DNA of 64,000 nucleotides from Malacoraja senta. Lineage: Eukaryota. Both the position numbers and the translations under genes were made by a program. The stretch covers positions 1,304,001 to 1,368,000 of the forward strand of contig CM075993.1 in the NCBI GenBank assembly GCA_038087875.1, given 5' to 3'. This document shows positions 1 to 51,391 of the stretch, piece by piece. The notes under the pieces were generated by a model that saw nothing but the letters and a program-made list of their open reading frames with translations, was not told where the DNA came from and ran no database searches. How positions within the stretch are numbered: position 1 is the first letter of the stretch; the number at the start of each line of letters is the position of its first letter.

Positions 1-172
1 CTGGGGAGATGAAATGGGACGTTTTAGGTTGAGCTTCTCTGGAGCTGTGAGGCAGCAGCTCTACCCACTGCACAACTGAACAGTGCAATAGGACATTAGA
101 ACCTTATCAGATAGATGAGCGACAATGACTGTATGGGTTTGTGTTCATATAGTGATGGTGATCTCTTATGTA

Positions 173-361
173 GACAAAAATGCTGGAGAAACTCAGCGGG
201 TGAGGCAGCATCTATGGAGCGAAGGAATAGGTGACATTACGGGTCTCGACCCGAAATGTCAGCTATTCCTTCGCTCCATAGATGCTGCCTCACCCGCTGA
301 GTTTCTCCAGCATTTTCGTCTACCTTCGATTTTTCCAGCATCTACAGTTCTTTCTTAAACA
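173..361. mobile_element. Fold-back Penelope-terminus unit with 15-bp TSD
   Basis: Inverted arms ~170-323; TSD gtgatctcttatgta at 158-172 and 362-376. Confidence 0.8.
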
Positions 362-25801: not shown

Positions 25802-25927
25802 CTTCTTCTTGCGTATGGCGTGCACAGCCTAAAGTTGTGGGACAACTTGTTCTATTTGATCTTATTTGATTGCGCATGCCGGGTTGATTGCATTTGCAGG
25901 CCATGTGAAGGTTGCAATCTCCCACCC
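25802..25927 (-). mobile_element. Second copy of the HDV-headed short retroelement (ribozyme internally deleted)
   Basis: GGGTGGGAGATTGCAACCTTCACATGG...TGCAATC...CCATACGCAAGAAGAAG; TSD agaccatacat/agactatacat (25791-25801 / 25928-25938). Confidence 0.85.
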
Positions 25928-27900
25928 AGACTATACATGACTACAATCAAGCCATCCATAGTTGTGCAGATAAAGGCTATAACGTTTAGCTCAAGATGAA
26001 GTTTGAATAAAAATAGTTCACAGGTCTCCAATGAGGTAGATGTGAGATCAGAACCGCACCTAGTTGTTGAGGGGATGGTTTCGTTGCCTGATAACAGCTG
26101 GGAAGAAACTGTCCCTGAATCTGAAGGTGTGTGTTTTCAAACTGCTGTTGTACCTCTTGCCCGATGGGTGTGGAGAAGAGGGGGGGACCGGGGCGAGACT
26201 GGTCCTTGATTATGCTGGTTCTCCATTCTAAGGCATCAGAGTGAAGGGAAGGTAGACAAAAATGCTGGAGAAACTCAGCGGGTGAGGCAGCATCTATGGA
26301 GCGAAGGGAATAGGTGACGTTCTTCTTTAGACTGATGTGGGGGTGAGTGAAGGGGAGTGTGAGTCAGCAGTAGTGGTGGGACTGAGCCTCTGGGTGACAC
26401 CAGCATCTTCCCAAGGAAAGAAAGTACCTTGGACAGAGTAGCACGACTTTGCAATTAGTCGCTCTCCCTCGGGTTCTTGCACTGGCACGTCTCGTCTTTT
26501 GACTCGTGAGGACATGTGTGTTAATCACCAGCAGTTTAAATAATCCCTTGTTTAAGTCGTGCCCAAAGTGAAGTGAATAGTTTTCTCGTGTGAGTTAGGC
26601 ATTACACGTCTGAACTGCATTGATAATTAAGAAAGCACAGAGATCACTCGGAGATGAAATGTGTTCTGGCAAATTACCAGTTTACAAAAGGTCACATATA
26701 TATGAACACAAAGCAACAACTGCATTTTTGTTCATTCAACGAACTAGGTTTGGTTTCTGATACTGATTCTATCTGCGTTCTGTTGTTGCTGTGCCCATAA
26801 GACTTGTTAGGTTGCATCGGGCTGAGTTGGTCACGCATTGTTGAGGGTTTAAAGCTGCAGCTATACCTCTCTCAAGCCTTGACTAAAGTATTATGGAGTA
26901 ACTGAAAGCCCACGGTTCTTTATTGGACGCGGTCTTTAGCGAGGGCTGGCACTTGTTATCTCGTTCTATTTTCGCACAATTATTCATTTATAGCTGATGG
27001 GTGTTGTTGGCAAGACCGGTAATGTTGAACCGGACCTGAGATGGTGATGAACATCTTCCATCTTGCAGCAATGCAGTTATTATCTACAAGACCGTTTCAG
27101 AAAAAGTGGCGCAGCGGTAGAGTTGCTGCCTTACAGCGCCAGAGACCCGGGTTCGATCCTGACTATGGGTGCTGTCTGTACGGAGTTTGTACGTTCTTCC
27201 CGGGACCGCGTGCGTTTTCCCCGGGTGCTCCAGTTTTCACCCACATTCCAAAGACGTGCAGGTTTGTAGGTTAATTGGCTTTGGTTGTAAACTGTCCCTA
27301 TGTGTGTGTAGGGCAGTGCTAGTGTACGGCGATCGCTGGTGGCTGTGGACTCCGTGGGTCAAGGGGCCTGTTCACGTGCTCTAAACTAATCTAAGAACTC
27401 CTCGAGATAGAAGCAGGAGTGGAGAAAAGATGATGAGAGGCATAGATAGGGTAGACAGTCAAAATCTTTTTCCCAGAGTGGAAATGTCAAAGACTAGTGG
27501 GCATAGCTTTAAGGTGAGTGGAGGGTGCCTGGAACATGTTGCTGGAGGTGGTGGTGGAGGCAGATACAAGACTGGTGGAGGAGGCTTTTAGACAGGCACA
27601 TGGAGATGCAAGGGATGGAAGGATATGGACCATGTGCAGGCAGGAGAGTTTAGTTTATCTCATCATCATGTTCAGCATGGATATTGTGGGCCGAAGGGCC
27701 TGTTCCTGTTCTGTGTTCTCTGGGTAGACAATCGTGTACCAATATCCTGACTGGCTCTCAACTTCAGCCTTATTATTGCCTGTGCTCCATATTCTTATGT
27801 TTCCTATTAATTTCTCCTTTAAATGTAACAAAAGATTGAGCATCCACAGAGCTTCACAGGAAAGACTTCTGAAAAGTCATCTCCCATTTGAATCCGAATT

Positions 27901-50710: not shown

Positions 50711-50840
50711 GCATCTTTAAGTTAGGTAGGGGATGGGACAGGGAAGGCAGGGGGACAGGTAGCTGAGGGACAGCCAAGTCACATTGAGGAGCCAAATTGT
50801 CTTCCGCAATGGTGGAAAATCTGGACTTCAGCAGAGAGAT

Positions 50841-50965
50841 CTTCCTGCGTATGGCGTGCACAGCCTAAAGTTGTAGGCCAGCTTGATCTATTTGTTTGTG
50901 CACGTCGGGTTGATTGCATTAGTCAAAACAGGGTGGACCAGGTGAAGGTTGCAATCTCCCAACCC
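50841..50965 (-). mobile_element. Short non-autonomous retroelement with 5' HDV-like ribozyme fold and GAA-type tail
   Basis: Flanked by direct repeat agcagagagat (50830-50840 / 50966-50976); homologous to 25802-25927; ends CCATACGCAGGAAG. Confidence 0.85.
50912..50965 (-). ncRNA. Predicted HDV/CPEB3-like self-cleaving ribozyme (54 nt, minimal P4)
   Basis: Minus strand: GGGUUGG(P1) GA GAUUGCA(P2) ACC(P3) UUCACCU(L3) GGU(P3') CCACCCU(P1') G UUUUGA CUAA(J4/2) UGCAAUC(P2'). Confidence 0.75.
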
Positions 50966-51391
50966 AGCAGAGAGATGTCTGTCAGTCTTGGTCATTTTCA
51001 GCTATGACGTGCCAGGTTCCCACGGTTGAAATCTTATCTTTGCTCCTTGCCAGAGTGATTCGATTGTTGAAGTCTGGTTAATTACATAAAGCACAGGAGA
51101 TGATTTTCTATTGTGCTGCTGGTGCTCCGTGTAGACTTCTCAGACGTGAAACTCCCTTCCATCTTCATCAGAAGACAGCTCATCATGCCTTTTGGCAGAG
51201 AGGTTTCCTATTAATCGATTCAGCGATCGATTAAATATTTCAGTAATCGATTTGATGTTCGATTATGAAATTATTTCATGTTATCCTGATCATTTATTTT
51301 GTTTCGTAAAAGGATTTTATTTGTCTCCTACTTTTTTTTTAAATTTCTCCATCTTCATTGCATTATTAATAGATTACTGCTTTTTACTCAG

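What the first reader, a model, noticed from the sequence alone, without database searches (positions are those of the whole stretch)
50841..50965. A ~125-bp retroposon whose head is a minimal HDV/CPEB3-type ribozyme
Seen: the minus strand begins GGGUUGG-GA-GAUUGCA-ACC-UUCACCU-GGU-CCACCCU-G-UUUUGA-CUAA-UGCAAUC. This gives P1 with a G1.U wobble (one U-C mismatch), a perfect 7-bp P2, a 3-bp P3, and a C-U-A-A J4/2 placing a candidate catalytic C. P4 is nearly absent. The predicted cleavage G1 is the first base inside an 11-bp TSD. The element has no tRNA/7SL/5S head, has a 3' stem (GUGCACA/UGUGCAC) and ends in a GAA-type tail. Known: this is the nested double-pseudoknot order of HDV-family ribozymes; L3 is one base from the CPEB3 loop UUCACGU as I recall it; such ribozymes process the 5' ends of R2, RTE and Ingi/L1Tc retrotransposons. 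Inference: a promoter-less SINE that cuts itself out of host read-through transcripts and is mobilised in trans. I do not know of a description in elasmobranchs, but cannot exclude a Repbase/Dfam entry.
Basis: partly seen in the sequence, partly recalled or inferred. Interest (0 to 1): 0.88.

Follow-up and report, generated by a model that had tools for sequence, protein, structure and literature searches.

The report
Ribozyme-headed miniature Vingi retrotransposon
This 125-base insert is a worn copy of a very small jumping element, present in thousands of copies, that consists of little more than a shortened self-cutting RNA fold joined to the tail of a Vingi-type LINE; the design is known from trypanosomes and flies, but the shortened fold had been described mainly from gut phages.

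Summary
The element belongs to a 125-135 nt family with at least 2,837 exact-tail copies. In 64 of 68 loci chosen by tail only, it starts at the ribozyme G-run, with TSDs of mostly 11-12 bp. Intact copies form a complete HDV-like double pseudoknot of 54 nt with no P4; 0 of 20,000 shuffles do. The window copy fails that test (G4U, G25C). Its last 41 nt are the final codons, stop and 3' UTR of a Vingi-type LINE in the same genome. Four of 18 such LINE copies carry the head inverted at their 5' break. Metagenome relatives of the LINE carry homologous ribozyme folds, with P4, just before the ORF, showing compensatory changes. One scores 55.6 bits on Rfam's mammalian CPEB3 model. Best reading: an internally deleted non-autonomous Vingi (NARTc/SIDE type), released from host transcripts by self-cleavage and copied in trans. 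Not shown: cleavage, lack of a promoter, a colinear full-length partner. A test for selection on the catalytic C gave no support.

The parts
50966..50976 (-). 5' target-site duplication, 11 bp (12 bp if G1 is included)
50959..50965 (-). P1 5' strand; G1 at 50965 is the predicted cleavage position; private G4U change at 50962
   Evidence: other organisms read the family base at 50962
50950..50956 (-). P2 5' strand (7 nt), after a 2-nt J1/2
50937..50949 (-). P3 (3 bp) and L3 (7 nt); family loop UUCACGU, this copy has G25C at 50941
50929..50936 (-). P1 3' strand and G37 (single P1.1 pair with C22)
50923..50928 (-). 6-nt linker in place of P4 (P4 is present in the LINE's relatives)
50919..50922 (-). 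J4/2 CUAA; candidate catalytic C at 50922 (CGAA in the other subfamilies)
50912..50918 (-). P2 3' strand; end of the 54-nt ribozyme fold
50886..50911 (-). Spacer inferred to be LINE 5' UTR; holds the 5' arm (50897-50904) of the end-to-end stem; inverted heads on LINE copies reach to about its 3' end
50841..50881 (-). 41 nt shared with the Vingi-type LINE: last codons, TAG stop (50865-50867), 3' UTR with the 3' arm of the stem (50855-50862), and GAA tail
50830..50840 (-). 3' target-site duplication, 11 bp
25805..25928 (-). Second, more decayed copy of the family, with deletions in the P1 3' strand and the linker

Best explanation
The family is a bipartite non-autonomous derivative of a Vingi-type LINE: about the first 80 nt and the last 41 nt of the LINE, joined across a deletion of about 3 kb. 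Step 1 (inferred): a copy is transcribed passively inside host RNA. Step 2 (fold shown by comparison, catalysis inferred): the 54-nt P4-less HDV-like ribozyme cleaves 5' of G1 and frees an RNA with a fixed, structured 5' end. Step 3 (shared tail shown, binding inferred): the Vingi endonuclease-RT protein binds the 3' UTR, helped by an 8-11 bp stem between the 5' and 3' parts, and does target-primed reverse transcription from the GAA tail. Step 4 (shown): the result is a nearly always full-length insert that starts at G1, with a TSD of mostly 11-12 bp. Because the ribozyme stays downstream of the cut, each intact insert can in principle be a new source. The window copy is a decayed member.
For: Copy number: 2,837 exact tail matches, control 0. 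5' ends: 64 of 68 unique tail-selected loci have the head; in 46 of 64 the TSD ends at G1 or overlaps it by one base, 2 overlap by two, 13 have 1-6 extra bases, 3 have no TSD found. Fold: 0 of 20,000 shuffles pass; 28 of 64 copies pass. Partner: 103 tail matches with non-family upstream sequence, 49 of the 100 listed sharing one LINE 3' end (counted by eye; 18 of the 30 fetched confirmed by script). Its RT is 74-84% identical in pieces to a 1,019-aa EN+RT protein without RNase H. It falls in a 100/100 clade that lies apart from this genome's RTE, Nimb-like and L2-like RTs; RNase H-bearing proteins, its closest BLAST matches outside the clade, branch beside it without resolved order. Head belongs with the LINE: 4 of 18 LINE copies carry it inverted at the 5' break, one inside a single 11-bp TSD. 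Relatives L359 and L424 have the fold within 100 nt upstream of the estimated ORF start, on the sense strand; L424 matches the head at 28 of 37 positions. Covariation: 97.8% of cells paired, 11 of 18 pairs change on both sides, 0 of 500 shuffles. End-to-end stem 11 bp in L058, 0 of 5,000 shuffles reach 10. The family with the same two boundaries is in contigs of 4 of 4 public runs laid.
Against: No cleavage assay exists. No colinear full-length LINE with the head was found: 0 of 18 fetched copies and 0 of 29 probed 2.85-3.25 kb upstream, though 2 of 29 reach the endonuclease. The CpG test does not single out the catalytic C: G45A 265 against C44T 115, but the control CpG gives 355 against 97. 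Among copies the paired core is no more conserved than the body (2.5% against 2.8% substitutions). Nested-only folding gives P1 a pairing probability of 0.03-0.15 against competing helices. The covariation rests on three lineages, and the relatives were picked because they fit the fold. P2 and P3 of the head are identical to the 5' end of an RTE family of this genome. No named Vingi sequence was in the tree.
Confidence: 0.7

Rival explanations
1. The head is a dual element like Pr77 of L1Tc/NARTc: an internal Pol II promoter starts transcription at or near G1, and the ribozyme only trims read-through RNA. The origin from Vingi is the same; the element is not promoter-less.
For: Pr77 is both promoter and HDV-like ribozyme in the related L1Tc/ingi clade (PMC4035085 passages; PMC8256844 passages). 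5' clustering at G1 fits either cause. About 25 nt after P2 are kept in nearly all copies.
Against: Extra bases before G1 are more often T than G, which is weak evidence against a capped template. No promoter test was possible.
Confidence: 0.25
2. After loss of P4 the fold no longer cleaves. It persists as a protein-binding or 5'-protecting structure, and the fixed 5' end has another cause.
For: No sign of selection on the catalytic C in the CpG counts or substitution rates. Competing helices in nested folding. G37 could pair with the catalytic C across a UUCG loop (seen in the sequence).
Against: All three subfamily consensuses keep every defining position. Changes shared by 10 or more copies lie at positions 8, 25, 32, 41, 42 and 45; only G25A is harmful, and it is not linked to any subfamily marker. 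P4-less HDV-like ribozymes are active (10.1101/2023.06.13.544163 passages; PMC6326823 passages).
Confidence: 0.15
3. A true composite SINE: a ribozyme head of separate origin, perhaps from an RTE 5' end, joined to a Vingi tail. The inverted heads on LINE copies would then come from this small RNA by template switching.
For: 19 of 21 nt across P2-P3-L3-P3' match RTE family 2 in the same register. No colinear head-plus-ORF was found in this genome. Earlier unchecked notes describe ribozyme-headed RNAs fused to truncated fungal LINEs.
Against: Over the first 37 nt the head is closer to the Vingi relative L424 (28) than to RTE2 (19-21). The RTE folds have C1-G and G22-C where this head and the Vingi relatives have G1.U and C22-G. 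Two inverted heads continue with bases not found in the common small element but found in the odd copy L053. No head with the RTE-type continuation exists (0 hits).
Confidence: 0.13

Closest known systems
NARTc / RIME / SIDER of the L1Tc-ingi clade (PMC4035085, passages read)
   Same: Short non-coding element made of the 5' and 3' ends of an APE-type LINE, HDV-like ribozyme at the exact 5' end, mobilised in trans, dispersed.
   Different: Vertebrate-sized genome, Vingi-type partner without RNase H, only 125-135 nt, no P4, GAA tail; promoter activity unknown.
R2 SIDEs (PMC3414825, search listing only; PMC6765202, passages read)
   Same: Internally deleted LINE that keeps the ribozyme to cut itself out of a co-transcript.
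   Different: Not site-specific, APE-type partner, thousands of dispersed copies with TSDs.
Bipartite non-autonomous Vingi and RTE elements (PMC5786205, passages read; Kojima 2011 not held)
   Same: Internal-deletion derivatives are reported for RTE, Ingi, Vingi and R2 and usually keep the LINE's 5' end.
   Different: [quoted passage not shown] Four short motifs of this family and of the RTE head were absent from its supplement text.
Minimal HDV-like and theta ribozymes (10.1101/2023.06.13.544163, passages read)
   Same: No P4, short J1/2, catalytic C first in J4/2.
   Different: Those lie in gut phages beside tRNAs; that study found none in the human, mouse and protist genomes it searched. 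Here the fold heads a retroelement.
Mammalian CPEB3 ribozyme, Rfam RF00622
   Same: L3 UUCACGU, one P1.1 C-G pair, G-rich P1; the partner's relative L359 passes the family's gathering score and L424 scores 25.2 bits.
   Different: This family's head has no RF00622 hit at E<=10; P2 and P3 sequences differ; P4 absent; multicopy.

Membership tests
HDV-like ribozymes | Nested double-pseudoknot order P1, P2, P3, P1.1 | tested here: met
   Descriptor passes L058 and 28 of 64 copies, 0 of 20,000 shuffles; covariation with relatives
HDV-like ribozymes | G1-pyrimidine pair at the cleavage site, which is the element's 5' end | tested here: met
   G1.U in 5 of 5 rows; TSD abuts G1 or overlaps it by one base in 46 of 64
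HDV-like ribozymes | L3 with U20 and G25 (reverse wobble; PMC6326823 passage) | tested here: met
   Met in all three subfamily consensuses; not met in the window copy (G25C)
HDV-like ribozymes | P1.1 with two C-G pairs (standard descriptor of PMC6326823) | tested here: not met
   Only C22-G37; the second position is U.U, as in the Rfam CPEB3 consensus
HDV-like ribozymes | Catalytic C followed by N-R-A in J4/2 | tested here: met
   CGAA or CUAA; CUAA is also in the RF02682 consensus and in L359
HDV-like ribozymes | P4 helix (absent in minimal forms) | tested here: not met
   6-nt linker only; fits the minimal subclass
HDV-like ribozymes | Rfam gathering score of a curated HDV-type family | tested here: not met
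   14.4 bits against 44 for RF02682; none for the window copy
HDV-like ribozymes | Mg2+-dependent self-cleavage lost on C-to-U change | not testable with these tools
   Needs a bench assay; the indirect CpG test gave no support
Bipartite non-autonomous LINE (SIDE/NARTc type) | 3' end identical to an autonomous LINE's 3' end | tested here: met
   41 nt at 88-98% identity
Bipartite non-autonomous LINE (SIDE/NARTc type) | 5' end identical to the same LINE's 5' end | tested here: inconclusive
   Head inverted on 4 of 18 LINE copies and homologous heads on relatives, but no colinear full-length copy
Bipartite non-autonomous LINE (SIDE/NARTc type) | TSD and microsatellite tail, no small-RNA head | tested here: met
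Vingi clade (partner LINE) | Single compact ORF, APE endonuclease plus RT, no RNase H (PMC13708176 passage) | tested here: met
   Closest intact relative P0001: 1,019 aa, RVT_1 plus endonuclease, no RNase H; genome copies cover parts of residues 131-1019
Vingi clade (partner LINE) | Sister to RNase H-bearing Ingi; groups with named Vingi elements | tested here: inconclusive
   100/100 clade apart from RTE, Nimb-like and L2-like RTs; the RNase H-bearing group P0108/P0109/P0113 shares an unresolved node with it; no named Vingi or Ingi row; the name also rests on recalled C-terminal features
RTE-derived non-autonomous element | 3' end shared with an RTE LINE | tested here: not met
   Three RTE families examined, none shares the tail
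Classical SINE (tRNA, 7SL or 5S head) | Pol III small-RNA head with A/B boxes | tested here: not met
   ARAGORN none, pattern scan none, Rfam none

The most novel reading that the evidence does not exclude
This is an active P4-less HDV-like ribozyme amplified in an animal genome, with roughly a thousand fold-intact copies, each able to cut host pre-mRNA and reseed itself without a promoter. It marks Vingi as a ribozyme-headed clade whose two RNA ends pair and are held together at the target (hence full-length small copies and inverted 5' captures), and whose 5' ribozyme is the source of the mammalian CPEB3 ribozyme.
Probability: 0.3. Interest if true: 0.85.

Novelty: new variant of a known kind. 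Interest (0 to 1): 0.6.

Why it matters
It gives the shortest cis-sequence set seen here for trans-mobilisation by a Vingi-type protein (about 80 plus 41 nt); Vingi proteins are being developed for RNA-templated gene insertion, where truncation is a known problem (PMC13708176 passages), and 64 of 68 of these inserts keep the head. It offers a 54-nt natural ribozyme with hundreds of single-change variants for structure-function work. It places a P4-less fold in an animal retroelement. The side finding that a Vingi-type LINE head passes the CPEB3 Rfam model makes the origin of that mammalian ribozyme testable.

Tried and rejected
RTE as partner: three RTE families found through PF20049 and a protein search; none shares the tail. 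Nimb/I-like and L2-like families from PF14529: no shared ends, apart from one truncated small copy fused behind an L2-like tail. Head with RTE-type continuation: 0 hits. Head with a long P4: 34 hits; the 30 fetched are deleted, mutated or interrupted small copies. Selection on the catalytic C by CpG decay: the control site is at least as skewed (Fisher p 0.004 in the opposite direction), so no support. Core versus body conservation: no difference. Colinear full-length partner: not found in 18 plus 29 copies; the head seen in L341 was a separate small copy. Exact 20-nt head motif in metagenomes: 0. Relatives in viral contigs: none. Rfam gathering search of 20 relatives, L359 not among them: 0. 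The strict descriptor on 23 relatives passed only L359. Expression: no RNA holder listed; the contigs laid cannot show starts or strand. Earlier-findings look-ups by sequence and place: nothing. Not held: Ruminski 2011, Kojima 2011, Webb 2009, Webb and Luptak 2011. Repbase and Dfam could not be searched.

Full report
Observation. Numbered from G1, the parts are P1 1-7/30-36, J1/2 8-9, P2 10-16/48-54, P3 17-19/27-29, L3 20-26, G37, a 6-nt linker, and J4/2 44-47. A second, more decayed copy lies at 25805-25928.

Family. A DNA search of the own genome (1.94 Gb) gave 2,381 candidates, and an exact 25-nt tail pattern gave 2,837 matches with 0 for the control. To avoid selecting for full length, I fetched the first 70 tail matches on contig 1 and dropped 2 duplicates. 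Of these 68, 64 carry the head (two loci that passed the script's threshold by chance were counted as headless). A TSD was found in 61 of 64, mostly 11-12 bp. It ends at G1 or overlaps it by one base in 46, overlaps by two in 2, and leaves 1-6 extra bases in 13. Among 94 copies there are three subfamilies, 2.9-6.5% from their consensuses, with J4/2 CUAA or CGAA and an A/G change that keeps P1 paired. Contigs of 4 of 4 public runs cover the same interval and stop at both ends.

Fold. A descriptor for HDV-like ribozymes accepts a consensus-like copy at its first base and 0 of 20,000 shuffles; 28 of 64 copies pass. Extrapolated, about 1,200 copies are fold-intact (inference from contig 1). The window copy fails: G25C removes the U20.G25 pair called crucial in PMC6326823 (passages), and G4U weakens P1 and creates a competing helix. 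Rfam finds nothing for it. For L058 the single hit at E<=10 is an HDV ribozyme model, end to end but far below threshold.

Partner. RTE, Nimb/I-like and L2-like families (labels from Pfam hits and recall) do not share the tail. A tail pattern that excluded the family's own upstream bases gave 103 matches; 49 of the 100 listed share one other upstream sequence (by eye; 18 of the 30 fetched by script). These are variably 5'-truncated LINE copies whose ORF stops inside the last 41 nt of the small element. Their closest intact relative is a 1,019-aa protein with endonuclease and RT and no RNase H. In an RT tree of 27 rows they sit in a 100/100 clade of such proteins, apart from the RTE, Nimb-like and L2-like rows; the RNase H-bearing group branches from the same unresolved node. 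This matches the description of Vingi in PMC13708176 (passages), but no named Vingi was in the tree. The LINE copies are about 95% identical over their last 235 nt, the small copies about 91%, so both were active in a similar period.

Is the head the LINE's own 5' end? No colinear full-length copy was found: none of 18 fetched, none of 29 probed at the expected distance, although 2 of 29 reach the endonuclease. Two indirect results say yes. First, 4 of the 18 LINE copies (14 checked by BLAST, 4 by eye) carry positions about 4-16 to 77-80 of the head inverted at their 5' break, one of them inside a single 11-bp TSD. Second, among 80 metagenome relatives, 18 have sequence upstream of the ORF start. 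A relaxed scan of all 329 kb gave 3 sense and 1 antisense hit, and 2 of the sense hits lie within 100 nt upstream of the ORF (L359, L424). About nine more show partial folds by eye. Aligned with the small element, these heads keep 97.8% pairing with two-sided changes in 11 of 18 pairs (0 of 500 shuffles). The caveats are three lineages and rows chosen for their fit. All relatives aligned have P4; this family does not. Against this reading, P2-P3 of the head is identical to an RTE 5' end of this genome, though the whole 37-nt core is closer to L424 (28 against 19-21 matches).

Mechanism. Shown: bipartite anatomy, fixed 5' end at the predicted cut, TSD, shared tail, and an 8-11 bp stem between the 5'-derived spacer and the 3' UTR (0 of 5,000 shuffles reach 10 bp). 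Inferred from L1Tc/NARTc and R2 (PMC4035085, PMC6765202, PMC8256844, passages): read-through transcription, self-cleavage, trans TPRT. Inferred from my data only: the two RNA ends are held together at the target, which would explain the deletion, the full-length inserts and the inverted captures. Tests for selection on catalysis were negative: the CpG at the catalytic C decays 265 to 115 in favour of keeping the C, but a control CpG decays 355 to 97 in the same direction, and the core is no more conserved than the body among copies. Dead-on-arrival copies would give the second result in any case.

Comparison and novelty. It works like NARTc/RIME and R2 SIDEs and files best as a bipartite non-autonomous Vingi; the 5' criterion is inconclusive. 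PMC5786205 (passages and supplement text) reports such derivatives for Vingi but does not list Vingi among ribozyme-bearing clades. Searches for Vingi with ribozyme, HDV-like ribozyme with SINE, HDV/RTE/non-autonomous and skate/cartilaginous/SINE/RTE showed no description of this family in listings or in the passages read. Four key papers were not held, preprint supplements are closed, and Repbase, Dfam and patents were not searchable, so a prior entry is quite possible. Minimal P4-less ribozymes are described from gut phages (10.1101/2023.06.13.544163, passages).

Side finding. The head of L359 scores 55.6 bits on RF00622, the mammalian CPEB3 ribozyme (gathering 35, E 7.9e-15), and L424 scores 25.2. 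A word search of PMC8233481 found no mention of transposons or origin; the listings did not show this link. It suggests, but does not show, a Vingi origin for that ribozyme.

Verdict. Real feature; new variant of a known kind; interest 0.6.

Noticed in passing
L359:2106-2190 (+): 5' end of a Vingi-type LINE from a metagenome passes the Rfam mammalian CPEB3 ribozyme model (55.6 bits); L377 holds the 3' half of the same head. Possible origin of the CPEB3 ribozyme.
   Followed up: partly
L270+L312, L284:1219-1292, L288:1088-1158, L267:1140-1202: Inverted ribozyme head fused to the 5' break of truncated LINE copies, always reaching to about position 77-80; resembles twin priming (recalled) but with the extreme 5' end and a long gap.
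   Followed up: partly
family positions 41-45 (window 50921-50925): Sense-strand G-to-A exceeds C-to-T at two CpGs, 355 to 97 even in a palindromic TCGA context, equally in both genomic orientations. Unexplained; hidden sub-lineages or a change on the cDNA strand are possible.
   Followed up: partly
L143, L147, L150 (RTE family 2) and L154 (RTE family 1), 5' ends: HDV-like folds with a long P4, a C1-G first pair and a reversed G22-C P1.1 pair; 1 of 4 copies passes a relaxed descriptor. P2-P3 nearly identical to this family's head.
   Followed up: partly
L053/L054: Variant small element with a different junction that aligns further into the LINE 3' end; may be an independent internal deletion.
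   Followed up: partly
5' junctions of tail-selected copies: T is the base before G1 in 39 of 66 rows, mostly as the last base of the TSD: a target-site preference.
   Followed up: no
L107:1247-1295 (-): A 49-nt 5'-truncated copy of the element fused directly behind the tail of an L2-like LINE; similar fusions behind other repeat tails in L040 and L268.
   Followed up: no
L074, L101 and others: Young Nimb/I-like LINE family with many intact 1,277-aa frames.
   Followed up: no
L345:424-560 and L349:286-362: Further Vingi-type relatives with ribozyme-like heads, L345 with long insertions, missed by the descriptors.
   Followed up: no
window 170-360 and many other places: Very abundant palindromic repeat of about 190 bp, dozens of pieces in the window.
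   Followed up: no
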